Below, piece by piece: positions 7,460 through 39,046 of a DNA stretch of 64,000 nt. The stretch spans positions 10,872 through 74,871 of the forward strand of contig DESD01000021.1 in NCBI GenBank assembly GCA_002361935.1. The letters run 5' to 3'. This stretch comes from Ruminococcaceae bacterium UBA3323 (GTDB lineage: Bacteria > Bacillota > Clostridia > Oscillospirales > Acutalibacteraceae). Below the pieces are notes generated by a model. That model was given only the letters and a program-made list of their open reading frames with translations. It made no database searches and was not told where the DNA came from. Each line of letters opens with the position of its first letter. The first letter of the stretch is position 1. The position numbers and the translations under genes are program-made.

Positions 7460-8911
7460 TTATAAATTATATTCAGCATAAAAACGGGTTATACTTTGCT
7501 TACGTTTTAGAATTTCATCAAAACGGTCTATATATTCATAAGGATATTTATAGTTATATACCCGTTCTATTTTTCCGGATTTCGGATCCTTAAGCTTAAT
7601 AACCGCACCTGCCCCTACGGCAAGAACCGTATGTGTTTCATCCATCATAAAAACATTATAAAGGCAATCATATCCGTTTTTGCACCAGCCGACATTTTCA
7701 AGATTGCCAAGTGATTTACCCTGACGATACATATAATACGGATGATAATTATGCTTTGTTAATTGTTTACTGCTGAAATCAACCATGGAAGCAACTATTT
7801 TTTTTGGAGAGCTGTCAAACGCAGACTCTCTTGTTGCCATATACGCACCGCTTTTAAGAGAAAGCGTATGAACTGTTATGGATTCTGCGTTAAGTGAAAT
7901 ACCTTTACACAAACTTTTTTCAAAGGATTCCAGCGTATCGCCCGGAAGACCTGCAATAAAATCCATATTTATATTGTCAAATCCGCAATTTCTGGCAAGC
8001 TCAAAGGCTGAAACCGTCTGAGAAGAAGTATGCTGCCTGCCGATTGTTTTTAAAACCGCATCATTAAAGCTTTGCGGATTAATACTAATTCTTGATACAC
8101 CTGCAGATTTTAAAGTCAGCAGTTTATCCTTGGTTACCGTATCGGGTCTGCCTGCCTCAACCGTATATTCACGCACTGTGCTTAAATCAAAATTCTTTTC
8201 GATTGCTTCAAAAAGCCTTGCAAGATTTTTTGCCGAAAGCGTTGTGGGTGTACCTCCGCCGAAATAAACGGTTTCAAGCCTCAAACCCAACAACCTTGCA
8301 TAAACGGCTGTTTCCTCTATCTCCCGAATAAGCAGATCAACATAGGGATCAATAAGCTTAACCGTATTTTCAATCGCATGGGAAACAAAAGAGCAATATG
8401 AGCATCTGGTAGGACAAAAGGGAATTGATATGTAAAGGGAAAAGCTTTTACAGTCTGACAATGCGATAATTTTGTTTTCACTGTGCATAACAGACACGGC
8501 AAGTTCTGTTTTCTCATGGTTTACAAGATATTTTTCTCTGAAAACACGCTTTGCTTCCTCTTCCGACAAACTGTCCGTCAATGCATGCATTCTTCTTGCG
8601 GGTCTGACGCCATACAGCAAACCCCATGGATACCTGATTTCAAGAATTTCGGAAAGAACATGATATAAAAGTACGGAAAGTGCATTTTGCATATCCGTTT
8701 CACAATCAGCAGAAACACTTTCTTTTTTGTGCTTATCATAAACAGTTGCATCAACAGATAAAACATAATCCCGAATTTCCGTTATTACTGTAACAGGGTC
8801 TGTTTCATCACAGGAATTTTCAAATATTCTGATTTTTTCATAAGGGAAAAATATTGTGCTTATATTTTCCATATCATAGCGATACGGGTGATTTTTAACA
8901 AGTATTATCAT
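7460..8911 (-). CDS. hemZ: HemZ-like radical SAM protein (coproporphyrinogen dehydrogenase family)
   Basis: PWG.LYGVRP, YISIPFCPTRCSYCSF (CxxxCxxC), GGGTPT, EAGRPD, PYYMYRQ, NLENVG; follows relA-dtd-MBL as is usual in Clostridia. Confidence 0.9.
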   Translation of the reverse strand: MIILVKNHPYRYDMENISTIFFPYEKIRIFENSCDETDPVTVITEIRDYVLSVDATVYDKHKKESVSADCETDMQNALSVLLYHVLSEILEIRYPWGLLYGVRPARRMHALTDSLSEEEAKRVFREKYLVNHEKTELAVSVMHSENKIIALSDCKSFSLYISIPFCPTRCSYCSFVSHAIENTVKLIDPYVDLLIREIEETAVYARLLGLRLETVYFGGGTPTTLSAKNLARLFEAIEKNFDLSTVREYTVEAGRPDTVTKDKLLTLKSAGVSRISINPQSFNDAVLKTIGRQHTSSQTVSAFELARNCGFDNINMDFIAGLPGDTLESFEKSLCKGISLNAESITVHTLSLKSGAYMATRESAFDSSPKKIVASMVDFSSKQLTKHNYHPYYMYRQGKSLGNLENVGWCKNGYDCLYNVFMMDETHTVLAVGAGAVIKLKDPKSGKIERVYNYKYPYEYIDRFDEILKRKQSITRFYAEYNL

Positions 8912-9978: not shown

Positions 9979-12168
9979 TTATAAACCACTTCTTTCAATA
10001 TGATAAACACCATCAATCTTTTTAATAATTCTGACAATATTCTCAAGATGCTCCTTGCTGTTTACTGCAACGGTTAAGGTTGTTAAGCAATTTCCGTCAT
10101 TTATGGGACGGGCATTGATGGAATGAATTTTAACATGCATATTCATCAATGTGCTTGTAATATCAAGAACAACACCGTCTCTGTCTATTGCATAAACATC
10201 AAGGGTAGACTTTGTTTCTATTCTGACATTCTCATCCCAGTGGGCTTTTATCCAGCGCTCGGGCTCAGGACAGTTTTCTATATCCTGCGGAACATTAACA
10301 CAGTTTCGTTTATGAATGGAAAGTCCGTGTCCTCTGGTAATAAATCCGATAATTTCCTCACCGGGAAGCGGGGAACAGCAGTTTGCCATTTTTATAAGGC
10401 AATTATCAATTCCTTCTACAATAATACCGCTTGAGGAAGATGTTTTTCTGGGCTTATCCACAACATTTGAAAAGGAGGGCTTTTCCGGCTCCTTTTCTTC
10501 TTTCCAGTTTCTGTTGTATTCATCTTTGATGCCCGGCATAAGACGGCTTATTTGAATACCGCCATAGCCAACAGCAGCATAGAATTCATCCGTATCGCCG
10601 AAATGCTGTCGCTCGGCAATTCTTACAATGAAGTCATCATATTTATCTCCGGAAAGGCGGATAAAGTTGCGGCGCAGTTCTTTTTCAACAATTACCTTGC
10701 CCTCTTCAATATTCTCATCACGTCTTTCCTTTTTAAACCATGTACGGATTTTATTTCTTGCTTCACCGGTACGTACAATGGAAAGCCAGTCCTTACTTGG
10801 TCCCTTATTCTGCTGATTAGAAGTCAGAACCTCAATTCTTTCTCCGGTTTTAATCTTATAATCAAGAGGAACAATTCTTCCGTCCACTTTGGCACCAACC
10901 ATTTTATTACCGACCGCAGAATGAATAGCATAAGCAAAATCAATAACGGTTGAACCTGTGGGCAGACTTTTAATATCTCCCTTAGGCGTGAAAACATACA
11001 CCTCTTCAACAGATAAATCACCCTTGATATTTGCAACCAAATCTTCCGGAGTATCGGATTCCTCACCTGTTTCAAGCATACGATGAATCCATGAAAGACC
11101 GGCATCAAGGCTGTCTTTTCCGCCTTTTCCAAGCTTATATTTCCAATGGGCTGCTATACCGAACTCAGCAGTTCTGTGCATATCCCATGTTCTTATCTGA
11201 ATTTCAAAGGGAACACCATTCGGTGAAAGCACGGTTGTATGGAGAGACTGATACATATTGGGTTTAGGAGTTGAAATATAATCCTTGAATCTGCCGGGAA
11301 TCGGCTTAAACATATCATGAACAATACCAAGTGCATTATAGCAGTCTATCATAGAGTTCACGATGATTCTTACAGCATAGATATCATAAATTTCTTCAAA
11401 GGATTTTCCCTTTATATAAACCTTTCTGAATATGCCATGAACGGATTTTACTCTTGATGTTATACTTGCATTTTCAATAACGGGCGTAATTCTGTCACTG
11501 ATTTGTGTCTTAATATCGTTTAAAAATTTCTCGCCCTCCTCCTGCTTCATAGAAAGAGAATTTTCGATTTCCCTGTACGCAATAGGATCAAGATATCTGA
11601 CTGCTGCATCCTCCAGTTCCTCTTTAATTGCACGGATACCGAGCCTATGTGCAATCGGCGCATAAATTTCCAGCGTTTCAAGACTTTTTTCACGCTGCTT
11701 ATATTCAGGCATATGCTGAAGCGTTCGCATATTATGAAGCCGGTCTGCAAGCTTAATGATAATAACACGGACATCCTTGTTCATTGCCATAAACATTTTA
11801 CGGATATTTTCAGCCTGCACCTCTTCCCTTGTTGAAAGCGGAATCTGACCAAGCTTTGTAACGCCGTCCACAAGCAGCTCAACATCAGCACCGAAGCGGC
11901 TGCCGATATAGGAAAGCGTATATTCGGTATCCTCAACAACATCATGAAGCAGTGCACCAATAATGCATTCGTTATCCATTCCAAGCCGGAAAAGAATTTC
12001 GGCAACAGCAACGGGATGCATAATATACGGCTCGCCCGAACGCCTTTTCTGTCCCGAATGTGCATGATTTGCCAGCTCATAGGCCTCTTTTATTTTTTCA
12101 ATATTATATTGAGGATGCTTTTTTATTTCTTCAAAAAAGGCATCAAAGCCGTCGTTATACTCACACAA
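9979..12168 (-). CDS. relA: Bifunctional (p)ppGpp synthetase/hydrolase (long RSH)
   Basis: HD motif HDVVED, KLADRLHNMRT, RFKDYI (RxKD), YQSLHT, EIQIRT, TGS (DFAYAIH), ZFD (CCSPLPG..I.GFITRG), ACT. Confidence 0.97.
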   Translation of the reverse strand: MCEYNDGFDAFFEEIKKHPQYNIEKIKEAYELANHAHSGQKRRSGEPYIMHPVAVAEILFRLGMDNECIIGALLHDVVEDTEYTLSYIGSRFGADVELLVDGVTKLGQIPLSTREEVQAENIRKMFMAMNKDVRVIIIKLADRLHNMRTLQHMPEYKQREKSLETLEIYAPIAHRLGIRAIKEELEDAAVRYLDPIAYREIENSLSMKQEEGEKFLNDIKTQISDRITPVIENASITSRVKSVHGIFRKVYIKGKSFEEIYDIYAVRIIVNSMIDCYNALGIVHDMFKPIPGRFKDYISTPKPNMYQSLHTTVLSPNGVPFEIQIRTWDMHRTAEFGIAAHWKYKLGKGGKDSLDAGLSWIHRMLETGEESDTPEDLVANIKGDLSVEEVYVFTPKGDIKSLPTGSTVIDFAYAIHSAVGNKMVGAKVDGRIVPLDYKIKTGERIEVLTSNQQNKGPSKDWLSIVRTGEARNKIRTWFKKERRDENIEEGKVIVEKELRRNFIRLSGDKYDDFIVRIAERQHFGDTDEFYAAVGYGGIQISRLMPGIKDEYNRNWKEEKEPEKPSFSNVVDKPRKTSSSSGIIVEGIDNCLIKMANCCSPLPGEEIIGFITRGHGLSIHKRNCVNVPQDIENCPEPERWIKAHWDENVRIETKSTLDVYAIDRDGVVLDITSTLMNMHVKIHSINARPINDGNCLTTLTVAVNSKEHLENIVRIIKKIDGVYHIERSGL

Positions 12169-29625: not shown

Positions 29626-30336
29626 TTAATTATTCTGCACAAGTGTGCCTATCGTTTCGCCGCAAACGGCTTTGCAAATATTTTCCGGATCATCAAGGTT
29701 GAATACAAGGATTGACATATCATTATCCTTACAAAGTGAAAATGCAGTTGAATCCATAACCTTTAAATCACGGTTAATAACCTCACGGAATGACACGGTA
29801 TCATATTTAACAGCATCACTGAATTTATTAGGATCCTTATCATAAACGCCATCTACATTCGTAGCCTTAAACAGAACATCGGCGTTAATTTCAACACTGC
29901 GAAGTGCAGCAGCAGTATCTGTTGAGAAAAACGGAGAGCCGGTTCCGCATCCGAAAATAACAATTCTGCCCTTTTCAAAATGACGTATAGCCTTATTTCT
30001 GATATACGGCTCTGCAATCTGGCGCATTTCAATAGCGGTCTGCACTCTTACATCAGCGCCAAGCTGTTCAAGAGCATCCGAAAGCGCAAGAGCATTCATA
30101 GAGGTTGCAAGCATACCGATATGGTCTGCTCTTGTTCTATCCATACCCTCACTTGTTCTGCCTCTCCAAAAGTTGCCTCCGCCGACTACAATACCGACCT
30201 CAACGCCCATATCGGCAACCTTTTTAACCGACCTGCATATTTTTACAACAGTGTCATTATCAATACCTGTTCCTTTTTCGCCTGCAAGAACCTCGCCTGA
30301 AAGCTTCAGCAAAATTCTTTTATAAGCAATACCCAT
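29626..30336 (-). CDS. pyrH: UMP kinase
   Basis: [42 protein letters not shown]. Start moved to 30336 (GGAGG SD). Confidence 0.97.
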
Positions 30337-30422
30337 TTTTATACCTCCGTGCAAATGGAAAGTTCCTTTTGTATTATCTATATATTAATATATTTTATAA
30401 ATAAAGTAAATAGTAATATAAG

Positions 30423-30449
30423 AAAAAGGCAGTAAATTTACCGCCTTTT
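30423..30449 (-). terminator. Terminator at the pyrH-side end of the accessory block
   Basis: AAAAGGCGGTAAATTTACTGCCTTTTT stem-loop with U tract. Confidence 0.7.
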
Positions 30450-30458
30450 AACATTTCT

Positions 30459-31094
30459 TTAATAACTGTCGAGCCTTTTCAACACTTCCTCTGCAATGAA
30501 TTTATGCCCTAAACTTGTTGGATGAATGCCGTCAACAGCTAATTCAGCAGGGGAAATCTTTTTTTGCACTTCATTAAACATTTGCTGCAAATCAATAATC
30601 TCTGCGCTGTTTGCGGCAGCCATATCTGCAAGCTTTCGGCGGTATTCATCAAGCACCTTATGAAACGGTTCTTTTTCTTTTACCGAATCAATCATAAACG
30701 GCAAAAGAACAAGCAGCTTTGTGTTTTTTAGCTCTGCATTCAGCCTTCTGTATAGTTCTTTCATATGCGGCTCCATAGGCCGTAAAAGAGGGGGATACTG
30801 TTCGGGCACATAATTTTCCCACGCATCATTTACCCCAATGAGCATAACAATAATATCGGGCTTAAGATTTATGCAATCCTTTGTAAGCCTGTCGTAAATA
30901 TGATACGTTCTGTTGGATGCTATGCCTTTATAAAAGAATTTCAGATTTTTATATGTCTTTTTCAGCTCTTTGGAAACCTGTAAAGCATAAACCCTTGACC
31001 CATGAATTTTATATGCAAACCGCCGGTTAAATTTTATATCGGTAATACTGTCTCCCAGAAATAAAATTCTGCAGCCGTCCTTAATTTCAATCAT
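30459..31094 (-). CDS. SGNH/GDSL hydrolase
   Basis: FLGDSIT (block I), G..SNRT, IGVND (block III), DGIHP (block V). Confidence 0.9.
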   Translation of the reverse strand: MIEIKDGCRILFLGDSITDIKFNRRFAYKIHGSRVYALQVSKELKKTYKNLKFFYKGIASNRTYHIYDRLTKDCINLKPDIIVMLIGVNDAWENYVPEQYPPLLRPMEPHMKELYRRLNAELKNTKLLVLLPFMIDSVKEKEPFHKVLDEYRRKLADMAAANSAEIIDLQQMFNEVQKKISPAELAVDGIHPTSLGHKFIAEEVLKRLDSY

Positions 31095-31114
31095 ATCATC
31101 TGCTCCTCAAATAC

Positions 31115-31576
31115 TCAATATAACTTATTGACCCAATCACCGTTTTCTTTAACCGATATAAATTCGCTTAAATGATCATCATCAAAAACCCTGAACATCA
31201 TATCAAAGCCTTCTGCCAATTTATAATTCTTCAAAGCCTCTTTCTTTATCCAGAAAACCTCTCCCTCATTTGATGAACGAAGATTTCCGCTGAATTCATT
31301 TGTTTTATAAAGCAAAACGATGTATCTTGATTTTTTGGACCATTTCCAATGCTTTATCCCGCACAGCCTTGGATTTTTAATATCAAGCCCGGTTTCTTCC
31401 TTAATCTCTCTGATAACGGAATCATTAAAGCTCTCGTCATGCTCTATATGACCGCCGGGAAAGGTAACGCCGCCCCAGCTTCTTCCGATTTTATCCTGAA
31501 CAAGAATATTGCCGTTATTGTCATAAATCATACACATATTTGTGAGCACTGTTTTTTCTTTCGCTTCCAATTCCAT
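31115..31576 (-). CDS. NUDIX hydrolase, MutT/8-oxo-dGTPase-like
   Basis: PGGHIE..ESF..SVIREIKEETG Nudix box; LTNMCM start motif. Start at ATG 31576 or TTG 31570. Confidence 0.88.
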   Translation of the reverse strand: MELEAKEKTVLTNMCMIYDNNGNILVQDKIGRSWGGVTFPGGHIEHDESFNDSVIREIKEETGLDIKNPRLCGIKHWKWSKKSRYIVLLYKTNEFSGNLRSSNEGEVFWIKKEALKNYKLAEGFDMMFRVFDDDHLSEFISVKENGDWVNKLY

Positions 31577-31646
31577 CACCAAATTAATGTTAACATAAAA
31601 TTCCCTTATTTGCAAACAAAAAAGCAGGTCATCAACCTGCCTTTTT
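31574..31646 (-). promoter_or_regulatory. Terminator-promoter-RBS module, copy A
   Basis: GCAGG..CCTGC hairpin + T tract, TTGCAA-17-TAACAT, then AATTTGGTGATG. Confidence 0.7.
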
Positions 31647-31666
31647 GTTATTTAATTTACTGCTTA

Positions 31667-31909
31667 TCACAATGTGACATACATTTCAAAACCATAAACT
31701 GTATTCATACTGAAAACAGTTAATCTTTTATTTCGTTTTATCTCTCTTTTCAATTTTTTGCAAAAAGAATAAACACTTTTTGCAGTAATATATATTTTTG
31801 CTTTTTTTAATTTTAAAGAAATTACAAGTGCAGTAAAAGAATTCAGTACAATACAATATGGCAGCCTGATTTTTATTTTAAATCTGCCGTTGGTGATTAA
31901 AATTTTCAT
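31667..31909 (-). CDS. Small basic hypothetical protein
   Basis: 80 aa, ATGA overlap with the XRE gene, Lys/Ile-rich, AT-rich DNA. Confidence 0.55.
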   Translation of the reverse strand: MKILITNGRFKIKIRLPYCIVLNSFTALVISLKLKKAKIYITAKSVYSFCKKLKREIKRNKRLTVFSMNTVYGFEMYVTL

Positions 31910-32469
31910 ATATCCTCGCGTTCTGCATAAACCTTAATCACATCGCCGTTTTGAGAAACAACATTTACAATTTCGCCCATAACACCGCTGTCAACAAGTT
32001 TAAAAATCATATCAAAATCTATTTTACTTAAATCAATACCGCCCACTGCAGCATTATTGATTTTTACATTTTCAAAAAGGCCCTTAATCGGTTCAAGCAA
32101 AGTAACGGGCAGTTTTACATTGATATTATCGCCACTCTGAGACAGAACATTTACCTTAATAAACATATTGCCGCTACCTGAATCTTTTCTTGAAAGATTT
32201 TCGTTAGCCTCTGTATTTTGTTCAGACTTTTCAGTATCGGGATTATTTGCTTTTTCATGAACCGCATTAAAGTCATCTGTACATAAAAGCTCATCAACTG
32301 TTTTACCGTACAATTTTGCAATTTCAGGCAAAAGCATAATATCAGGGCAGGACAAATCATTTTCCCACTTTGATACAGCCTGAGGTGAAACGCCAAGACG
32401 AACAGCTATTTCCTCCTGTGTAAAGCCGGACTTTTTTCTCATATAATTTAATTTTTCTCCAAGTGTCAT
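31906..32469 (-). CDS. XRE-family HTH regulator with a C-terminal DUF2089/SHOCT-like domain
   Basis: R...GFTQEE.A.RLGVSPQAVSKWE....PDI.LLP.IA; C-terminal VNIKLP..L and G.IV.V.S..GD.I.V. Start at ATG 32469. Confidence 0.8.
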   Translation of the reverse strand: MTLGEKLNYMRKKSGFTQEEIAVRLGVSPQAVSKWENDLSCPDIMLLPEIAKLYGKTVDELLCTDDFNAVHEKANNPDTEKSEQNTEANENLSRKDSGSGNMFIKVNVLSQSGDNINVKLPVTLLEPIKGLFENVKINNAAVGGIDLSKIDFDMIFKLVDSGVMGEIVNVVSQNGDVIKVYAEREDI

Positions 32470-32530
32470 TTTGTGATTTCCTTTCATCCATAAAATAATT
32501 GATGCACCAATTTCAATAACAATCTAACAC

Positions 32531-32608
32531 ACAAAATCGGTTGATGAAAGCAACTTAAGGTTGAAATTTGTTCTTACAACTATTGGTTGTTTTATCAACC
32601 ATTAGTTT
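32531..32608. promoter_or_regulatory. Operator-like array, CAAC-N5-GTTG, upstream of the XRE gene
   Basis: Full sites at 32551-32563 and 32577-32589; partial sites at 32531-32543 and 32596-32608. Confidence 0.55.
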
Positions 32609-32623
32609 AGCGCACTTTTTCAG

Positions 32624-32935
32624 CTAATCTTCAACATATTCCAAAAATATTTTCTTTTCAAAAGCACCATTTTTGATTTCTTTTTGTTCCTTTAATTTTA
32701 ATATTTCATCAAAACTGCTGCCCTTTGCTTTTGCAAGATATTCAACCACTTCAAGAATATCTGCAAGTTCCATAAGTTCCTCACTATCAATGAATTCATT
32801 TGTTTCTTCGATAAGCTTTGTTTTCAGTTCCCACAAATATTTCTCATCATCAAGGATGGATGTATGCGGTATTTCACCGTTTTTTCTTATGATATCAGGT
32901 ATATTATCCCTTACTAATTTATTGTAAACTCTCAT
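32624..32935 (-). CDS. All-alpha NTP pyrophosphohydrolase (COG4997/MazG-like)
   Basis: YNKLVRD.IP.II, KL.EE..E, ELADI.EV, K....G.FE..IFL. Confidence 0.85.
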   Translation of the reverse strand: MRVYNKLVRDNIPDIIRKNGEIPHTSILDDEKYLWELKTKLIEETNEFIDSEELMELADILEVVEYLAKAKGSSFDEILKLKEQKEIKNGAFEKKIFLEYVED

Positions 32936-32958
32936 ATTTTACCCTTCCTTGACAAACA

Positions 32959-33396
32959 TTATTTAAGCCTTTGAATATAGCCTGTTTTTTCAAATCTGTT
33001 ATAGCCGTTTTTCTGATAAAACTTATGTGTACTTCGCTTTTTCGAGCCTGTTAACAGCATCATTTTATAACAATGATTATCAACGGCTATCTGTTTTGCA
33101 AAAGAAAGGCAGGCAGATGCCAGACCGAGCTTTCTGCATGCTTTATCCGTAACAACATTTTCAATTAAAGCATACGGCTGCTGGTTATGCGTTAAGTTAG
33201 GTATAATAACGCAAACACAAGAGGACACAATTTTTCCCCTTTCCTCTGCTACAATGATATGATGATTTTCATCTGCCAGTATTTTATTGAATACCGCAAT
33301 ATTTTTATCATTATTTTCAATCGGTTTGTTGTTGTGTAAATGCGTATACAATTCACTTAAACCATCAAAATCATTCTCATTAATTTCTCTTATCAT
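32959..33396 (-). CDS. GNAT family N-acetyltransferase
   Basis: IIPNLT....PYA.IENVVT....RK.GLA, CYK.MLLTGSK, FY...GY. Confidence 0.88.
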   Translation of the reverse strand: MIREINENDFDGLSELYTHLHNNKPIENNDKNIAVFNKILADENHHIIVAEERGKIVSSCVCVIIPNLTHNQQPYALIENVVTDKACRKLGLASACLSFAKQIAVDNHCYKMMLLTGSKKRSTHKFYQKNGYNRFEKTGYIQRLK

Positions 33397-33761
33397 AATT
33401 CCTCAAGCTCTTTCTGAATATATTTGGGAAGCTTTGAAATAACATGGCTATAGCTATGGTCTATCATTTCTTTTACTGCATCATCAGCCAAAATGTTATC
33501 CAGCGGAAGCGTATTAAAATACGGCTGCTGAACAGGCGGACAATGCCAACCCCTTACAACAATATCGGGATAAAGCTTTCTGTAGAATTCACCGGTTAAT
33601 CGGTCACAATTAAAGGTTGCCGTATTCCTTCCTTTCAGCTTGAAAAACTGAGCAAATATTTTACCCTTTACTTTAATTACGGTAACCTCATCACCAAAGG
33701 GATAATCCTCATACGCACCACTTTTGCTTAAACAGTATGCAATAAAATCCTGCGGTTCCAT
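33393..33761 (-). CDS. MmcQ/YjbR family protein
   Basis: YCLSK.GA.EDYPFG.....KV.GK.FA; variant C-terminal segment (GWHCPPVQQPYFNT). Confidence 0.8.
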   Translation of the reverse strand: MEPQDFIAYCLSKSGAYEDYPFGDEVTVIKVKGKIFAQFFKLKGRNTATFNCDRLTGEFYRKLYPDIVVRGWHCPPVQQPYFNTLPLDNILADDAVKEMIDHSYSHVISKLPKYIQKELEEL

Positions 33762-33776
33762 ATAGCTTTCCTCAAT

Positions 33777-34493
33777 TCATCCATGATAAATAACATTATC
33801 ATTCAGTTTATAATTTTCATGAAACAAGCCTGTTGTATCTACATAGTAATTGTTCATATTGTTTGGCTCATAATATACCTTAACGGTTTGTCCGATACAG
33901 TCTGCACTTACATTTTCCCACACATTATCACTTTTGAACCTATGTATCTTTACACCGTCATCATAGTCAGCCTCAATGATAAACGGATATCTGCGGTTAA
34001 CAGATATTCCGGTATTTTCATAAAATCTTATCACTTCAGCATTTATCACAAGACCATTTTGAAGCAGATGCCTGCGTTTTGCATTTTTATTTTTTTGCTT
34101 GATAATCAGTACAATTGATGCTATCAGAAAGGCTACACCTAACAAGCCAAAAACCAAGCACAAAACAACAGGCATTTCGTTCTTGATTTCCTTCGGATTA
34201 TCAGGATTATAATAAACATCTACACTGTCGCCGATATCCCATGAGGAATTGTAAGAATTCATTTTATCGGTATATTCTTTACCATCAGCAACATATTTAA
34301 CCACCGTTTTTGTATGCTTATCATTATCGGAACCACGATAAACTTCAAAATCAATGATTTCCGCTTTAACGGAAATGCAGGTGTTTCTTATATTGATATT
34401 TATTGCTGTAAATACGGCGGACAGAGATGTATATATAATTCCGATAATCAGAAATACAAGGATACACAGCTTCATCGGTTTTATTTTTTTCAT
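33777..34493 (-). CDS. DUF3592-type membrane protein with two OB-like extramembrane segments
   Basis: TM - (A.I.DF...V.Y..DG..Y...G..V.V.Y.P.NP) - TM - second similar segment ending V.VYY.P.N...YYVD. Confidence 0.7.
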   Translation of the reverse strand: MKKIKPMKLCILVFLIIGIIYTSLSAVFTAININIRNTCISVKAEIIDFEVYRGSDNDKHTKTVVKYVADGKEYTDKMNSYNSSWDIGDSVDVYYNPDNPKEIKNEMPVVLCLVFGLLGVAFLIASIVLIIKQKNKNAKRRHLLQNGLVINAEVIRFYENTGISVNRRYPFIIEADYDDGVKIHRFKSDNVWENVSADCIGQTVKVYYEPNNMNNYYVDTTGLFHENYKLNDNVIYHG

Positions 34494-34496
34494 AAT

Positions 34497-34571
34497 CATC
34501 ACCAAATTTATAGTAACACACTGCCTGTTTTATTGCAACAAAAAGAGCAGGCAAAAGCCTGCTTGCTCTTT
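34497..34571 (-). promoter_or_regulatory. Terminator-promoter-RBS module, copy B
   Basis: GCAGG..CCTGC hairpin + T tract, TTGCAA-17-TACTAT, then AATTTGGTGATG. Confidence 0.7.
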
Positions 34572-34574
34572 GCA

Positions 34575-35363
34575 CTATTTAACTAAATCATTCCATTTCC
34601 TTTGAAAAAACATAAATTCCCTTACGAATTTTGGAAAAACAACATTTCCCTTTTCATCCCAATAAACATCCCAAATATAATCATAATATAAATTGCCATT
34701 ATCATCATAGATTAAAAAGATATCGCTATAATGTATGCTTTCGGAATCATAATCGAAAATGCATAAATCACCATCCTGATTTATACAGTATAAATAATCT
34801 TCCATTTTGTATTCTTTTCCACTTTCTATTGAAACAAGCGTATCAAACCGATCATCAACCCATTTATAGCTGTTTCCATTTTCATCATAGTACAAAAAGT
34901 TCATATCTTTATATAGATATTTATTTCCCTTTTTATCATATATTACTTTATTATTCAGATCATCAACAGTTGTTTGAGGATTAAGCGTATGTTCAAATTC
35001 ACCTGTATTAGATAAATTATAACAAATTGCACCACTATAAGATAAAGCAATCAGAATTATAGAAAACACTAAAAAAATATTTTTAGATTTGTATCGTTTA
35101 ACTGTTTTATTTTTACGATTAACAACAGCATAAATGATAGGGATAATAACACCAAAAAGAAAAGTTAATAAAGACCAAAGAAATCTGTATTTTACCTCTC
35201 TTTCCTTTGCACTTGAATGAATAGTAAGACAAAGAAAAATTCTGTATAAAGCAAAAGAAACAAACCATAAGCCAAGATAAAACATCTGAAAACTGCTGGC
35301 AGTTACCAAGTCATAAAAATTAAAAGTCCAAAAATAATCTGAAAACAAAGAAAACATAATCAT
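34575..35363 (-). CDS. Hypothetical membrane protein with YDxxGN repeats
   Basis: About 3-4 N-terminal TM helices, then a Tyr/Asp-rich domain with YDKKGN, YDENGN, YDDNGN, WDEKGN; very AT-rich. Confidence 0.7.
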   Translation of the reverse strand: MIMFSLFSDYFWTFNFYDLVTASSFQMFYLGLWFVSFALYRIFLCLTIHSSAKEREVKYRFLWSLLTFLFGVIIPIIYAVVNRKNKTVKRYKSKNIFLVFSIILIALSYSGAICYNLSNTGEFEHTLNPQTTVDDLNNKVIYDKKGNKYLYKDMNFLYYDENGNSYKWVDDRFDTLVSIESGKEYKMEDYLYCINQDGDLCIFDYDSESIHYSDIFLIYDDNGNLYYDYIWDVYWDEKGNVVFPKFVREFMFFQRKWNDLVK

Positions 35364-35468
35364 TTTCACCCCCACCTTTCAATCTCATATTCTCACATAA
35401 TCTAAAAAATGTAAATAATTTTCAGATTATTTTATAATTCGTTTTAGTTTAATTTAGAAACAATTAAG

Positions 35469-35495
35469 AAAAAGAGCAGGCAATGCCTGCTCTTT
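35469..35495 (-). terminator. Terminator hairpin sharing a 15-nt direct repeat with 34540-34554
   Basis: AAAAAGAGCAGGCAATGCCTGCTCTTT. Confidence 0.75.
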
Positions 35496-35500
35496 AAATT

Positions 35501-36151
35501 TTACAAAAGTATATTTTTCAAATCAGCAACTGTTTTTGCAATATATGATGCACCGGCGTTATTCAGTTCTTCATAGTCGCCGTATCCATATTCAACACCT
35601 ACCGAATCCATACCAACCGCCTTCGCACCGATTATATCGTGCATTCTGTCTCCAACCATAACAGCCTTTGATTTATCCGCAATGCTGCATTGCCGTAAAG
35701 CATATTCAATAACGTCTGCCTTTTTCGAGCGCGTTCCATCCATATTTGAACCTGCTGTAAATTCAAAATATTTTGCAAGATCAAAGTGTTCCATAATCCT
35801 ATCGGTAAATTGCTGAGGCTTGGAGGTTGCAAGAATGAGCCTTTTACCGTTATCAACAAGCTCCTGCAGAAGCTGCGGTATGCCATCATAAACCTTATTT
35901 TCCAAAAGCCCTTTGGTACTGAAATATTCACGATAAAAGGATACTGCTTCCATTGCCTTATCCTCTTCAAACCCATAAAAGTCCCTGAATGATTCGTGCA
36001 GAGGAGGCCCTAAAAATTTTCCGAGTGTTTCTGTATTCTCAACTGCGATATCATACTTTTTCAAAGCATAAATGATTGAGTTGATAATACCCGGCGAAGA
36101 ATCTGTTAAGGTACCGTCAAGGTCAAATAAGATTACATCGTAACTTTTCAT
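35501..36151 (-). CDS. HAD-IA hydrolase (phosphoglycolate phosphatase/5'-nucleotidase-like)
   Basis: FDLDGTLTDS, FLGPPL, ATSKP, K..VI, MVGDR.HD..GA. Start moved to 36151 (AAGGAG SD). Confidence 0.9.
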   Translation of the reverse strand: MKSYDVILFDLDGTLTDSSPGIINSIIYALKKYDIAVENTETLGKFLGPPLHESFRDFYGFEEDKAMEAVSFYREYFSTKGLLENKVYDGIPQLLQELVDNGKRLILATSKPQQFTDRIMEHFDLAKYFEFTAGSNMDGTRSKKADVIEYALRQCSIADKSKAVMVGDRMHDIIGAKAVGMDSVGVEYGYGDYEELNNAGASYIAKTVADLKNILL

Positions 36152-36200
36152 AGCATACTCCTTTACATTAAAATTTTTCATATATATACTTATAGTTCAT

Positions 36201-36227
36201 AAAAGCCTCGGTCAACCGACCGCTTTT
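36201..36227. terminator. Hairpin upstream of the HAD gene
   Basis: AAAAGC-CTCGG..CCGA-CC-GCTTTT imperfect stem. Confidence 0.5.
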
Positions 36228-36297
36228 ATTATAAACCAATAATCTGAATTGCGAAAAAAACATCTTAAATCCGGCAATCCATTTATAGAGAAACACA

Positions 36298-37137
36298 TCA
36301 ATTTTTCCATTCAACGCTTTCATTAACAACATTATTTCCGTTGTTGTCTGCACAAATAATCTCTATATCCTTTGGAGAAAGCTTGATTAACGACGCAACA
36401 TAACTGCCGTTTTCACTTGCATCTATTCCGCCGTCAACAAGTGTAGGAATCATTCCCGAATCATCAAACTCGCATATATGTTCATGACCACTGATTAATA
36501 TAGATGCATTCAGAGAATTTATTTTCTTCAAAGCAGAATCAGCCAGATCTTCTTCAATACAAATTTCCCTTGAATGTGAAAAAACAATGGTTTTATCATT
36601 ATCATCATTTTGCAAATTATTCAGCCAATTAACCATTTCGGTGCGATACTGTTTATAATCCACCATACCGCCATACTCAGGATGTGAATCCTCTTTATCC
36701 TCACAGCTATCTAAAACAATAATATCATAATCGCCAATAGAAGTTGTAAAATAAAAGCTGTCCAATCCCAAATAGGTTGAAAGATTAACGGCCTCTCTTC
36801 CGCGGGTTTTGTGATTTCCACGGGTGTATATAACAGGAATCGTACCGCCTGTAAGATTATAGCCAAACTTAAGAATGTAATCCACAATATCCTGTTCACT
36901 CATTAATCCCGGAGCACAATCACCAAGAAGCACTACAGCCTGATAGTTTTCTCCTATCTCTTTTACAGCAGTTTCAGCCTTTTTATTAAATGTGTGCCAA
37001 TCGGAAACAGACAAAACATTTATGTTTTCACCGAACGAATCATTTAAAGTATAGGAATCACTTTCTATGGTTTTTCCAAGTCTTGTATAACCGTAAAAAT
37101 GCTGATTCCGCCCCAGTACAACAATACCTGTTTTCAT
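36298..37137 (-). pseudogene. Metallophosphoesterase, probably 5'-truncated or degenerate
   Basis: SDWH, LLGD, RGNH(K), LDS.EDK.D.H.EYGG, SH, SGHEH. No SD of its own; GNHE appears as GNHK; N-terminus short for this family. Confidence 0.5.
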
Positions 37138-37202
37138 TTCTTTAACAAAATATGGATTTTCCCAAGTAAAGATTCTTTAATTGTTTTACAAATATCGCAC
37201 AT
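37134..37202 (-). CDS. 22-aa micro-ORF MCDICKTIKESLLGKIHILLKK
   Basis: Strong AGGAGG SD; its TGA overlaps the downstream ATG (ATGA). Confidence 0.4.
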   Translation of the reverse strand: MCDICKTIKESLLGKIHILLKK

Positions 37203-37214
37203 AAACCCTCCTGA

Positions 37215-38039
37215 TTAATCATCAAACGACAGAGACATGTTATCAGCAAGCCATTTTGCAACACCATCATTATCATTACTGTCAATAATCCCTGTGGCAA
37301 TTGCTTTCAGTTCATCAACTGCATTGGAAACAGCATAACATTCATCAGCAATTTTAAACATATCCATATCATTCAGACCATCGCCGAACGCAACTATTCT
37401 GTCACAGGAGAGCAATTTCTTCAAAGTCAGAATACCATTCGCTTTTGTAGCTTTAAGAGGCATAATTTCAAGCCATTGCGTATCGTTATAAATATCCTTT
37501 TGATAAAGGCAGTTAAACCGTTTTTTATATTTATCATAAAAAGGCAGCAGATGTTTTTCATCATAAATACAAGAAATATAAAAAATATCTCCCTTTAATA
37601 AATCAGCTTCATTTTCAACAGGATTATCACGACCGTCACCTTTACGTGATTCAATAAAAAGCCTTTGCCCTGCGTTGCATTTATTTTCTATATAAGAAAA
37701 TTTCTCTTTACCATCTATAATACTATAAATTATTGGATATATACAGCCATCAAGCAACTCTTTCACTATCTGTTTAATATCATTCTGAAAGAAATTTGAC
37801 ACCAATCTTTCGCCTGTTGAATTATCTATAACGAATGTTCCGTTATAAACAACAAGAGGTATTTTGGCTGATATTCCATTGGCTGCCAAGCGTGCCGTAG
37901 AATAACTTCGTGCCGTTGCATAAGAAAACAGAACGCCTTTTTCAGCAAGAGCGTTGATTACATTGTTTGTGTATTCTGATGTTGTCTGACTGCTGTTTAA
38001 AAGCGTGCCGTCCAAATCCGATACATAAAGCGTTTTCAT
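37215..38039 (-). CDS. Cof-type HAD-IIB hydrolase
   Basis: SDLDGTLL, ATARS, NG..V, WLEI....ATKANG, FGDG.ND..MF..AD..YAV.NA. Start moved to 38039. Confidence 0.9.
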   Translation of the reverse strand: MKTLYVSDLDGTLLNSSQTTSEYTNNVINALAEKGVLFSYATARSYSTARLAANGISAKIPLVVYNGTFVIDNSTGERLVSNFFQNDIKQIVKELLDGCIYPIIYSIIDGKEKFSYIENKCNAGQRLFIESRKGDGRDNPVENEADLLKGDIFYISCIYDEKHLLPFYDKYKKRFNCLYQKDIYNDTQWLEIMPLKATKANGILTLKKLLSCDRIVAFGDGLNDMDMFKIADECYAVSNAVDELKAIATGIIDSNDNDGVAKWLADNMSLSFDD

Positions 38040-38074
38040 AATACTTTCTCCGAAATTTACATATTGGCAGATAC

Positions 38075-38102
38075 AAAAAACGGCTGTCTTTCGACAGCCG
38101 TT
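38075..38102 (-). terminator. tsf terminator
   Basis: AACGGCTGTC-GAAA-GACAGCCGTT followed by TTTT. Confidence 0.85.
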
Positions 38103-38107
38103 CATTA

Positions 38108-39046
38108 TTAACCGTTAATCTGCTTTGCAATTTCTTCAGCAAAGTTTTCCTGGCGCTTTTCGATGCCTTCGCCTCTTGTCATACGAATAAAGCCATTAGC
38201 CTTAATCTCTGTGCCAAGCTTCTTGGCAACATCATCAATATAGCCCTTAACTGCACCCTGGAAAAGATCCGAACGAACAAATTCCTGTTCAACAAGGCAG
38301 TTTTCTTTGTAATACTTGCCCATTTTACCTGCGGCAATCTTTGCAAGAACTGCTTCAGGCTTGGAAGCCATTTTTGGATCTTCCTTCATCTGAGCAGCAA
38401 GGATGCCCTGTTCGTGCTCGATAACCTCGGCAGGAACGGAAGCTTCATCAAGATAAGCAGGATTCATAGCAGCAATCTGCATTGCAACATTCTTGCCCAT
38501 TTCATCAAATGCAGGATCAGCAGCCTTTGCTTCATCAGCAACATCAAAGCCGATCATAACGCCAACTGAGCCGCCGCCGTGAACATAAGTTGAAACTACA
38601 CCGTCCATAACCTCGAAACGGCGGATTTTCATATTCTCGCCGATAGCAAGAATTAAATCATTAAGGGTTTCTGTTACAGTTCTGCCTGTACCCATATATT
38701 CAGCTTCTGCAAGCTCTTCAACAGTTTTAACGCCTGTAGCGATAACTGTTTTAGCACAATCTGTTACAAAATTTACGAATTTTTCGTTTTTAGCAACAAA
38801 GTCTGTTTCCGAGTTAACCTCGATTACAACACCCTTCTTAGCATCTGCATCTGCATAAGAGAGAACAACACCCTCTGCAGCGATTCTTGCAGCCTTCTTC
38901 TGAGCTGCAGCAAGACCTCTTTCACGAAGGAAGTCGATAGCCTTGTCCATATCGCCGTTTGCTTCTGTAAGAGCTTTTTTACATTCCATCATACCAACGC
39001 CTGTTTTTTCGCGAAGTGACTTAACGTCCTGAGCTGTGAATGCCAT
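38108..39046 (-). CDS. tsf: Elongation factor Ts
   Basis: VK.LREKTG.GMM.CKKAL, R.AAEG, EVNSETDFVAKN, GEN..IRRF, GEGIEK. Confidence 0.97.
   Translation of the reverse strand: MAFTAQDVKSLREKTGVGMMECKKALTEANGDMDKAIDFLRERGLAAAQKKAARIAAEGVVLSYADADAKKGVVIEVNSETDFVAKNEKFVNFVTDCAKTVIATGVKTVEELAEAEYMGTGRTVTETLNDLILAIGENMKIRRFEVMDGVVSTYVHGGGSVGVMIGFDVADEAKAADPAFDEMGKNVAMQIAAMNPAYLDEASVPAEVIEHEQGILAAQMKEDPKMASKPEAVLAKIAAGKMGKYYKENCLVEQEFVRSDLFQGAVKGYIDDVAKKLGTEIKANGFIRMTRGEGIEKRQENFAEEIAKQING

What the first reader, a model, noticed from the sequence alone, without database searches (positions are those of the whole stretch)
31574..34571. Recurring ~75-bp terminator-promoter-RBS module heading unrelated genes
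SEEN (minus strand): copy A (31646 to 31574) aaaaaGGCAGGttgatgaCCTGCttttttgtTTGCAA-N14-tgtTAACATtAATTTGGTGATG; copy B (34571 to 34497) agcaAGCAGGcttttgCCTGCTctttttgTTGCAA-N14-tgtTACTATaAATTTGGTGATG. Both have the same hairpin core, identical -35, 17-nt spacer, TG-extended -10 and an identical 12-mer, with GGTGA placed 5 nt before a start codon (TTG of NUDIX, ATG of DUF3592). The predicted TSS falls at the SD itself, or the mRNA is leaderless from GTG/ATG. INFERENCE: a portable stop-and-restart expression joint that insulates and expresses acquired genes and might also serve as their recombination point, i.e. a possible integrase-independent cassette system.
Basis: partly seen in the sequence, partly recalled or inferred. 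Interest (0 to 1): 0.62.

Follow-up and report, generated by a model that had tools for sequence, protein, structure and literature searches.

The report
Ordinary terminator-promoter joints, reused locally
The two look-alike 75-bp segments are real but ordinary "stop, then restart" expression signals from a small promoter family confined to one variable gene island, built to a promoter design also used by core genes, and nothing shows that they move genes.

Summary
Observation confirmed. Both copies sit at the stated coordinates. Each has a stable hairpin plus T-run, -35 TTGCAA, a 17-nt spacer, a TG-extended -10, and AATTTGGTGATG, a 12-mer that occurs only twice in the 2.0-Mb assembly.

Each copy reads as an intrinsic terminator abutting a sigmaA-type promoter. 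The predicted +1 is the first G of GGTGAT, so the mRNA would begin with its Shine-Dalgarno sequence.

That design is not special to acquired genes. This genome has 23 such sites, including L31 and tRNA/rRNA methyltransferase genes. It is about 9-fold enriched across the genus and recurs in unrelated Firmicutes.

A and B do belong to a small promoter family. Its clear members lie in the accessory island that splits tsf from pyrH, in a few sister species, where related copies head six different genes. So "recurring module heading unrelated genes" holds.

The cassette idea is not supported:
- The genome has only two copies.
- The hairpin sequences differ.
- There is no recombinase or attC-like site.
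- Gene-content breakpoints fall at gene boundaries with and without a module.
- Contigs from ten other samples that encode the identical GNAT protein show the same gene order wherever they cover the island, with module B invariant (10 of 10) and module A nearly so.

One gene is flanked by a duplicated terminator, which leaves a weak recombination reading open. Interest is low to moderate.

The parts
31617..31646 (-). Copy A terminator: AAAAA-GGCAGGT-tgatg-ACCTGCT-TTTTTG, ending the HTH-sORF80 unit
   Evidence: Sequence. Folds at -20.0 kcal/mol including the A/U extension. The same hairpin is picked up by the terminator scan on the opposite strand.
31587..31615 (-). Copy A promoter: -35 TTGCAA (31615-31610), 17-nt spacer, TG-extended -10 TGTTAACAT (31595-31587)
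   Evidence: TTGCAA is the 4th commonest -35 among 154 TTGnnn-17-RTGnTAnnAT sites in this genome.
31574..31585 (-). Copy A 12-mer AATTTGGTGATG: A/T-rich discriminator plus SD GGTGAT; predicted +1 at 31580
   Evidence: The purine peak at position 7 after the -10 in this genome's promoter-like sites falls on the first G of GGTGAT. The TSS is predicted, not measured.
31115..31570 (-). NUDIX hydrolase gene. TTG start at 31570-31568, with an in-frame ATG at 31576-31574 as alternative
   Evidence: Pfam NUDIX 3.7e-16. The TTG aligns with the ATG start of the G007 orthologue. Gene callers on conspecific contigs chose the ATG, giving 153 aa.
34539..34571 (-). Copy B terminator: AAAGAGCAAGCAGGC-tttt-GCCTGCTCTTTTTG, after the 266-aa gene
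   Evidence: Terminator scan; -20.0 kcal/mol. Near-duplicate of the HAD terminator.
34510..34538 (-). Copy B promoter: -35 TTGCAA (34538-34533), 17-nt spacer, TGTTACTAT (34518-34510)
   Evidence: About 85% identical over 47 bp to the promoter in front of a different gene in G010 and G006.
34497..34508 (-). Copy B 12-mer AATTTGGTGATG; predicted +1 at 34503
33777..34493 (-). DUF3592 membrane protein gene, first gene of DUF3592-YjbR-GNAT-orf103-HTH-sORF80
   Evidence: Pfam DUF3592 3.1e-13. The ATG at 34493 matches the start in G100 and in locus L095. Called as 238 aa on most conspecific contigs.
35466..35495 (-). HAD-gene terminator AAAGAGCAGGC-att-GCCTGCTCTTTTTCTT. Together with copy B's hairpin it forms a ~30-bp imperfect direct repeat around the 266-aa gene
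   Evidence: GCCTGCTCTTTTT occurs only at these two places in the genome. G100 has a single hairpin, then the promoter and DUF3592.
34575..35375 (-). 266-aa membrane protein gene of unknown family with its own upstream region; 27% GC
   Evidence: No Pfam or NCBIfam family. GC 0.272 against 0.387 for the genome. Absent from G100 and G007.
30423..38105 (-). Accessory island between tsf (38108-39046) and pyrH (29626-30354) that contains both modules
   Evidence: Pfam: S2, EF-Ts on one side; AA_kinase (pyrH), RRF, UppS, CdsA, Dxr on the other. Its content differs in every sister species examined.

Best explanation
A and B are two ordinary stop-and-restart junctions between transcription units.

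How each one works:
- A stable GC-rich hairpin with a T-run ends the upstream unit. For A this is HTH-sORF80; for B it is the 266-aa gene.
- The T-run runs straight into a housekeeping-sigma promoter: -35 TTGCAA, a 17-nt spacer, and a TRTG-type extended -10.
- The -10 lies six bases upstream of GGTGAT. Transcription should therefore begin at the first G of GGTGAT, giving an mRNA that starts with its Shine-Dalgarno sequence. The start codon follows four to five bases later (TTG for NUDIX, ATG for DUF3592).

Why they look alike:
- This minimal-leader design is a general style in this genome and genus, and arises independently in other Firmicutes. Much of the A-B likeness, including GGTGAT and its position, is therefore functional constraint.
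- Beyond that, A and B belong to a small family of related promoter segments. The family lives in the variable accessory island between tsf and pyrH in a subclade of this genus of gut Clostridia MAGs.
- These promoters sit after terminated units (after HAD, after HTH-sORF80). They have stayed in place or been duplicated locally while the neighbouring genes were gained, lost and reordered by ordinary indels at gene boundaries. That is why the same promoter type heads different genes in different species.

Shown: the sequence elements, the family and its distribution, and the gene-order differences.
Inferred: that the elements terminate, initiate and bind ribosomes as predicted, and that the family members share descent.
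For: Terminators: hairpins of -17 to -20 kcal/mol followed by T-runs.

Promoter and start site:
- The promoter elements are as stated.
- The purine peak at position 7 after the -10 across 154 promoter-like sites places +1 on the first G of GGTGAT.

SD reading:
- The spacing peaks for GGAGG, GAGGT, AGGTG and GGTGA step down 7, 6, 5, 4 nt. GGTGA is therefore read in register with the usual anti-SD.
- In G010 and G006 the same module reads GGTGATaaaATG. Its GTG is out of frame with the gene, so the motif acts as an SD and not as a leaderless start.

General design:
- TGnTAnnnT followed by GGTGAT at gaps of 6, 7 and 8 occurs 10, 5 and 5 times, against about 1.7 at other gaps.
- This genome has 23 such sites with ORFs, including L31, a TrmB-type and an RlmD-type methyltransferase, UDG and an inositol monophosphatase.
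- Across the genus there are 139 matches in 101 genomes against 16 for the reversed control.
- The exact 24-base pattern occurs in 7 loci among 185,579 species. Five of these are in other genera and have unrelated spacers. The control pattern gives 0.

Family:
- The model R1 scores above 35 bits only for A, B, four copies in G010, three in G006 and one in G116.
- Scores of 27-30 bits fall in the same island in G005, G007, G100 and G119; island copies in G101 and G001 score 23-24 bits.
- G119 has A plus NUDIX. G100 has B's hairpin, promoter and DUF3592.

Stability: contigs from ten other samples show the same gene order over the parts they cover. Module B is identical in all ten. Module A is identical in six of seven, and the seventh differs only in the spacer.
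Against: - No transcript data.
- The MAG has no 16S 3' end to confirm the anti-SD.
- Common descent of A and B rests on short sequences. Their spacers share only 6 of 17 positions, so convergence on the same design cannot be excluded for this particular pair.
- Three signs hint that recombination in or next to these joints has occurred: the terminator duplication around the 266-aa gene; the insertion of an unrelated gene exactly at hairpin A in G119; and two G006 copies that differ at 1 of 29 compared positions, fewer than the 2-3 differences separating each from its G010 counterpart.
Confidence: 0.72

Rival explanations
1. The joints act as short homology patches. RecA-type recombination between module copies, or between their terminators, inserts, excises and reshuffles single-gene units in the island. 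The joint guarantees expression of whatever gene lands behind it.
For: - The 266-aa, 27%-GC gene is bracketed by a ~30-bp imperfect direct repeat of one terminator. G100 has the empty site with a single hairpin.
- In G119 an unrelated 269-aa gene, carrying a stray NUDIX 3' fragment, sits exactly where hairpin A lies here.
- HTH-sORF80 followed by a module is found before NUDIX here and before GNAT in G010 and G006.
- In G010 two modules share the hairpin GGGCGGATAGTATCCGC.
- In G006 two paralogous copies differ at 1 of 29 compared positions. Each differs from its G010 orthologue at 2-3 positions.
Against: - This genome has only two copies, and the clear family members lie in one locus.
- The hairpins are not conserved between copies.
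- Other indels in the same island have no module at their edges: the metallophosphoesterase, YjbR, orf103 and GDSL genes.
- DUF3592 and NUDIX also occur without any module.
- HTH orthologues in G131, G077, G057 and G053 have no module beside them.
- Contigs from ten other samples show no presence/absence variation.
- No recombinase gene lies in the island.
Confidence: 0.1
2. The likeness reflects co-regulation. The modules share an operator for one transcription factor, for instance the XRE-family HTH protein encoded in the island, so they form a small regulon.
For: - Conservation extends into the spacer (TTGCAATAAAA...TGCTTATGTTA) in G010, G006, G119 and G136.
- A module follows the HTH-sORF80 unit in several species.
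- This genome has at least one clear promoter family with a shared palindromic operator at four loci, so such regulons do exist here.
Against: - No dyad or direct repeat is conserved across the family. CAAT-N5-RTTG appears in only three copies, and not in A or B.
- The A and B spacers differ at 11 of 17 positions.
- The HTH gene's own leader carries a different motif, CAAC-N5-GTTG twice.
Confidence: 0.08
3. A and B are unrelated promoters that converged on the same optimal design, and their resemblance has no historical meaning.
For: - The same 24-base pattern arose in unrelated genera with unrelated spacers.
- The A and B spacers are dissimilar.
- 108 other promoter-like pairs in this genome are at least as similar.
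Against: - B is about 85% identical over 47 bp, spacer included, to the G010 and G006 copy in the same island.
- The G119 orthologue of A carries the family's TGCTTAT spacer.
- A and B lie 3 kb apart in one island.
- They alone share AATTT among the ten sites of equal spacing.
Confidence: 0.15

Closest known systems
Intrinsic terminator followed by a sigmaA (sigma70-type) promoter with the Gram-positive TRTG/-16 extended -10
   Same: Hairpin plus T-run; -35 TTGnnn; 17-nt spacer; TGn-TAnnAT; purine start about 7 nt downstream.
   Different: The promoter begins immediately after the T-run, and the leader is reduced to the SD itself. Function was not measured. The TRTG motif name comes from my own knowledge of Bacillus subtilis promoters.
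Switched intergenic regions / horizontal regulatory transfer (described in PMC5890482, citing the E. coli study)
   Same: The same gene has non-homologous upstream regions in related genomes: NUDIX in G007 against this genome, DUF3592 in L095 against this genome, and orf103 in G010 against this genome.
   Different: Here the striking side is the converse: one promoter type sits in front of different genes, within a single island. Incongruence with gene trees was not tested.
Integron gene cassettes (attC sites, IntI integrase, common Pc promoter)
   Same: An array of small, same-strand, unrelated accessory genes separated by short structured joints.
   Different: No integrase. The hairpins are terminators of varying sequence and not attC sites. 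Each unit has its own promoter, whereas integron cassettes are promoterless. No strain-level cassette turnover was seen.
Chromosomal hotspots of gene turnover flanked by core genes (my own knowledge of the hotspot literature; not checked in a paper here)
   Same: A variable accessory block between two conserved core genes, tsf and pyrH, with no mobility gene. Its content differs in every sister species.
   Different: Nothing unusual beyond the locally repeated promoter type.
Leaderless and short-leader mRNAs
   Same: The -10 lies within about 10 nt of an in-frame ATG or GTG in both copies.
   Different: The predicted +1 lies 4 nt before that ATG. In G010 and G006 the GTG is out of frame and no ATG lies in the motif. 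The motif matches the SD register of this genome. An SD-led minimal leader therefore fits better than a true leaderless start.

Membership tests
Intrinsic (Rho-independent) terminator | GC-rich stem-loop followed at once by a T-run, downstream of a stop codon on the same strand | tested here: met
   A: 6-7 bp GC-rich stem extended by A/U pairs, -20.0 kcal/mol, six Ts. B: 7 bp stem plus extension, -20.0 kcal/mol, CTCTTTTT. Both follow stop codons.
Intrinsic (Rho-independent) terminator | Transcripts end at the T-run in vivo | not testable with these tools
SigmaA-type promoter with extended -10 | -35 TTGnnn, 16-18 nt spacer, TGn plus TAnnnT | tested here: met
   Both copies: TTGCAA, 17 nt, TGT-TAACAT or TGT-TACTAT. 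The same architecture occurs at 154 sites in the genome.
SigmaA-type promoter with extended -10 | Measured transcription start 6-8 nt after the -10 | not testable with these tools
   Only predicted, from the purine peak at position 7.
Shine-Dalgarno-led initiation | Motif complementary to the 16S 3' end at the spacing used by other genes of the genome | tested here: inconclusive
   Genome-wide, GGTGA peaks at 4 and 6 nt, in register with GGAGG at 7 nt. The modules have 4-5 nt. The assembly lacks the 16S 3' end, so complementarity rests on general knowledge.
Integron cassette array | IntI-type tyrosine recombinase next to the array | tested here: not met
   Pfam on every gene from rpsB to dxr shows no recombinase.
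Integron cassette array | attC-type imperfect inverted repeats of a common type at each cassette 3' end, with promoterless cassettes | tested here: not met
   The hairpins differ in sequence (GGCAGGT, AGCAGGC, GGGCGGATAG, GGAGGG). All carry T-runs, and each is followed by its own promoter.
Miniature mobile repeat (MITE/REP-like) | Many dispersed copies with terminal inverted repeats or target duplications | tested here: not met
   Two copies in 2.0 Mb, both in one island. No match in Rfam.
Switched intergenic region / horizontal regulatory transfer | Orthologous gene preceded by non-homologous upstream sequence in related genomes | tested here: met
   NUDIX: module A here, 20-nt coupling to orf103 in G007. 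DUF3592: module B here, GDSL plus AAGGAGA in L095. orf103: 23-nt gap after GNAT here, a B-like module in G010 and G006.
Switched intergenic region / horizontal regulatory transfer | Distribution of the upstream region incongruent with the gene or species tree | not tested
   The sequences are too short and the MAG contigs too fragmented for a tree test.
Leaderless mRNA | Transcript starts at the first base of the start codon | tested here: not met
   The predicted +1 lies 4 nt before the ATG of GGTGATG. The family copy in G010 and G006 has no in-frame start in the motif. This is a prediction only.

The most novel reading that the evidence does not exclude
The terminator-promoter joints of the tsf-pyrH island serve as short homology patches. 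Through them, host recombination inserts, deletes and reorders single-gene units without any dedicated recombinase. Each joint carries the signals that keep the next gene expressed. This would be an integrase-free, self-insulating cassette array. The duplicated terminator around the 266-aa gene, and the gene inserted at hairpin A in G119, would be footprints of such events.
Probability: 0.09. Interest if true: 0.65.

Novelty: new member of a known kind. Interest (0 to 1): 0.25.

Why it matters
It matters mainly as a caution. Two neighbouring joints with an identical 12-mer look like a mobile module, but most of the likeness comes from a compact promoter design that the organism uses widely.

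Two modest points may be useful:
- Gut Clostridia of this genus, and some other Firmicutes, repeatedly place a strong extended -10 six bases before GGTGAT. The mRNA would then begin with its ribosome-binding site. This is a testable and compact expression signal.
- The tsf-pyrH gap in this genus is a recombinase-free hotspot. A few related restart promoters persist there while the genes around them turn over, which illustrates how operon insertions avoid silencing downstream genes.

Tried and rejected
- Integron or attC reading: rejected. No integrase, dissimilar hairpins with T-runs, and promoters in every unit.
- Mobile miniature repeat: rejected. Only two copies, with no terminal repeats beyond the terminator stem.
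- Known RNA element in the joints: Rfam gave only sub-threshold terminator-like hits.
- Leaderless GTG or ATG start: rejected as the general reading, because the G010 and G006 copy has GTG out of frame.
- Common operator: no conserved dyad was found by eye across the family.
- Same gene inserted at two modules: the 266-aa gene here and the 269-aa gene at module A in G119 are unrelated.
- Donor of the 266-aa gene: the closest homologues in 121 genus genomes are at most 43% identical, so its original terminator could not be examined.
- Tandem duplication as the source of the G010 promoters: the two GNAT genes are only 29% identical, so any duplication is not recent.
- Anti-SD check: no 16S 3' end in the assembly.
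- BLAST of relatives in the Python box failed because loci from other genomes were not placed there. I used the alignment and search tools instead.
- One hit outside the island with a high model score (G116, 35 bits) looks like a generic promoter with a long leader, not a family member.

Full report
**What is there**

| Element | Copy A | Copy B |
|---|---|---|
| Hairpin and T-run | 31646-31617 (AAAAAGGCAGGTtgatgACCTGCTTTTTTG) | 34571-34539 (AAAGAGCAAGCAGGCttttGCCTGCTCTTTTTG) |
| -35 TTGCAA | 31615-31610 | 34538-34533 |
| Spacer | 17 nt | 17 nt |
| Extended -10 | TGTTAACAT, 31595-31587 | TGTTACTAT, 34518-34510 |
| AATTTGGTGATG | 31585-31574 | 34508-34497 |
| Start codon | TTG, 31570-31568 | ATG, 34493-34491 |

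The downstream genes are a NUDIX hydrolase and a DUF3592 membrane protein. The NUDIX TTG aligns with the ATG start of the orthologue in relative G007. The DUF3592 ATG matches the start in G100 and in locus L095.

**Is it more than chance?**

- The 12-mer occurs exactly twice in the 2.0-Mb assembly, both times here.
- A profile of four copies, which included A and B, finds only A and B in this genome.
- I anchored 337 promoter-like sites on their -10 and compared all pairs. A and B share 33 of 51 positions, which ranks 109th of 56,613 pairs. That is unusual but not singular. A reader scanning 64 kb would expect about one such pair.
- The shared hairpin core GCAGG...CCTGC is common among this genome's hairpins (102 hits on both strands), so it carries no weight.
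- The A and B spacers agree at only 6 of 17 positions. The likeness is concentrated in the functional elements and in the AATTT stretch, which no other site of the same spacing shares.

**What the elements are**

- Both hairpins fold at about -20 kcal/mol and are followed by T-runs. They follow the stop codons of sORF80 and of the 266-aa gene, so they are intrinsic terminators by sequence.
- The promoter elements fit the housekeeping-sigma pattern with the TG extension. This genome has 154 sites of the form TTGnnn-17-RTGnTAnnAT, and TTGCAA is the fourth commonest -35 among them.
- In those sites, purines peak at position 7 after the -10 (117 of 154, against 8 C). In both A and B that position is the first G of GGTGAT.
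- GGTGA is used as an SD here in register with the canonical motif. The spacing peaks step down from 7 nt for GGAGG to 4 nt for GGTGA.
- In G010 and G006 the same module reads GGTGATaaaATG, where the GTG is out of frame. The consistent reading is an SD-led mRNA with a minimal leader, not a leaderless one.
The MAG also lacks a 16S 3' end.

**The design is general**

- TGnTAnnnT followed by GGTGAT occurs 10, 5 and 5 times at gaps of 6, 7 and 8 nt, against about 1.7 at other gaps.
- With a start codon and an ORF of at least 60 codons required, there are 23 such sites in this genome.
- They head ribosomal protein L31, a TrmB-type methyltransferase, an RlmD-type methyltransferase, a uracil-DNA glycosylase, an inositol monophosphatase and a response regulator, among others.
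- Across 101 genomes of the genus, the pattern TGTTANNATNAATTTGGTGAT with up to two mismatches gives 139 matches against 16 for the reversed control. The -35 and spacer sequences of these matches are unrelated.
- The exact pattern including TTGCAA occurs in 7 loci among 185,579 species. Five are in other genera, including two Bacilli MAGs, each followed by 3-4 nt and ATG. A control with the 3' part reversed gives none.

**There is nevertheless a real family**

- *A B-like promoter heads a different gene.* In G010 and G006 a segment about 85% identical to B over 47 bp, spacer included (TTGCAATAAAACAG...TGTTAATATAAATTTGGTGAT), sits in front of a 103-aa ORF. That ORF has no Pfam or NCBIfam hit. 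In this genome it follows GNAT after only 23 nt.
- *Several copies lie close together in G010.* It has four related copies within 2.5 kb, heading an HTH gene, a GNAT gene, a second GNAT gene and the 103-aa ORF.
- *The sequence-only model R1 shows where family members lie.*
  - It scores above 35 bits only for A, B, the G010 and G006 copies and one G116 site.
  - Scores of 27-30 bits fall in G005, G007, G100 and G119, all in the same island. Island copies in G101 and G001 score 23-24 bits.
  - Most genomes otherwise give 17-25-bit generic hits.
- *Orthologues in sister species.*
  - G119 has the orthologue of A in front of NUDIX, and its spacer carries the family's TGCTTAT.
  - G100 has B's hairpin, promoter and DUF3592.
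  - The G116 site lies elsewhere and looks like a generic promoter with a long leader.

**Context**

The island lies between tsf and pyrH, inside the conserved run rpsB-tsf ... pyrH-frr-uppS-cdsA-dxr. Its order here is Cof-HAD, metallophosphoesterase, HAD, 266-aa gene, DUF3592, YjbR, GNAT, orf103, HTH, sORF80, NUDIX, GDSL.

Every sister species differs:

| Genome | Order |
|---|---|
| G100 | tsf-CofHAD-HAD-T-P-DUF3592-GNAT-HTH-sORF80 |
| G007 | HAD-T-P-GNAT-orf103-NUDIX |
| G119 | tsf-pseudogene-HTH-sORF80-X-P-NUDIX |
| L095 | GDSL-DUF3592-another gene-pyrH |
| G010 | GDSL ... HTH-sORF80-P-GNAT-P-GNAT2-T-P-orf103-pyrH |

. There is no recombinase gene. The MAG records of relatives are labelled Eubacterium sp., Clostridiales or Ruminococcaceae bacterium.

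**Do breakpoints map to the module?**

Some do:
- Against G007, the segment HTH-sORF80-hairpin-promoter A is present here and absent there. It starts three codons before the orf103 stop and ends at the NUDIX start codon.
- Against G100, the 266-aa gene is extra here. It is bracketed by near-duplicates of one terminator (35495-35466 and 34571-34539), and GCCTGCTCTTTTT occurs nowhere else in the genome.
- In G119 an unrelated 269-aa gene, with a stray NUDIX 3' fragment, replaces hairpin A just upstream of the T-run and -35.

Others do not:
- The indels of the metallophosphoesterase, YjbR, orf103 and GDSL genes have no module at their edges.
- NUDIX and DUF3592 both occur without a module.
- HTH orthologues in G131, G077, G057 and G053 have no module beside them.

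Viable indels must lie at gene boundaries, and modules lie at gene boundaries, so this pattern needs no special recombination role.

The family associates best with what lies upstream. It sits after the HAD terminator in G007, G100, G101 and this genome, and after HTH-sORF80 in this genome, G010 and G006. That is what restart promoters after terminated units would look like.

**Stability within the species**

- Contigs from ten other samples carry the identical GNAT protein. They show the same gene order as the window over whatever part of the island each covers; the longest (L137) spans rpsB to dxr.
- Module B is identical in all ten.
- Module A is identical in six of seven. The seventh differs only inside the spacer, which is the pattern expected under selection on the -35, the -10 and the SD.
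- There is no sign of cassette turnover on this time scale.

**Verdict**

- The reading as terminator-promoter-RBS joints heading unrelated genes is supported.
- The reading as a portable, recombination-active cassette joint is not supported.
- The most likely account (about 0.7) is a pair of ordinary stop-and-restart junctions. They are built to a compact design that the organism uses widely, and they belong to a small, locally retained or duplicated promoter family in a recombinase-free hotspot.
- The homology-patch cassette idea keeps about 0.1, because of the terminator duplication and the G119 insertion.
- A shared operator and pure convergence of A and B remain minor alternatives.

**Earlier notes of this scan**

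The notes on the island and on the hairpin-bracketed gene agree with what I had already found independently. They are first-reader notes, not evidence.

Noticed in passing
window 30423-38105: A ~7.7-kb block of twelve small accessory genes splits the normally adjacent tsf and pyrH, with no mobility gene. Its content and order differ in every sister species examined, but it is the same in contigs from ten other samples of this species.
   Followed up: partly
window 34539-35495: A 266-aa membrane protein gene of no known family, at 27% GC, is bracketed by an imperfect ~30-bp direct repeat of one terminator. Relative G100 has the single-hairpin empty site.
   Followed up: partly
window 32551-32589 (minus strand): The leader of the XRE-family HTH gene carries two CAAC-N5-GTTG palindromes 26 nt apart. 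They are conserved in G010, G006 and G119, and are probably the repressor's own operators.
   Followed up: no
genome contigs C30:~5788(+), C49:~27212(-), C45:~54246(+), C22:~27325(-) (minus-strand values are offsets on the reverse-complemented contig): Four promoters share a ~30-bp near-perfect palindrome, AAACCAAAGGACAATATTGTyCTTTGGTTT, overlapping the -35, and they head different genes. This looks like a small regulon with a common operator.
   Followed up: no
genome contigs C49:~48295(-), C54:~13694(-) and ~13898(-), C66:~7721(+); C7:~12652(-), C40:~25791(+), C24:~868(+) (minus-strand values are offsets on the reverse-complemented contig): Two families of terminator-promoter units are each followed by about 150 nt of structured non-coding sequence that ends in ...GTCGCAGCA... 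or ...TTTGGCGACAGTTG.... They may be repeated small-RNA or leader genes. They were not compared with Rfam.
   Followed up: no
L080 (G119:C89) 1474-1520: A 47-bp duplicate of the NUDIX 3' end lies upstream of an inserted 269-aa gene, about 1 kb before the intact NUDIX gene. It looks like a footprint of the rearrangement that brought the gene in.
   Followed up: partly
L011 (G010:C3) 8158-8180, 10285-10420; L012 (G006:C35) 11765-11905: The hairpin GGGCGGATAGTATCCGCCC and a CGTAGGGG motif recur several times in the island of G010, G006 and G005. They may be a local repeat family.
   Followed up: no
window 32624-32935: The 103-aa ORF between GNAT and HTH has no Pfam or NCBIfam match. It is interrupted (75 aa) in two conspecific contigs (L137, L140) and mostly deleted in G100, so it may be dispensable.
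   Followed up: no
genome contigs C1:~27233(+) and C64:~48(-) (the minus-strand value is an offset on the reverse-complemented contig): An identical 51-nt promoter segment lies at a contig end, upstream of what looks like the ligA start. It is probably an assembly overlap between two contigs.
   Followed up: no
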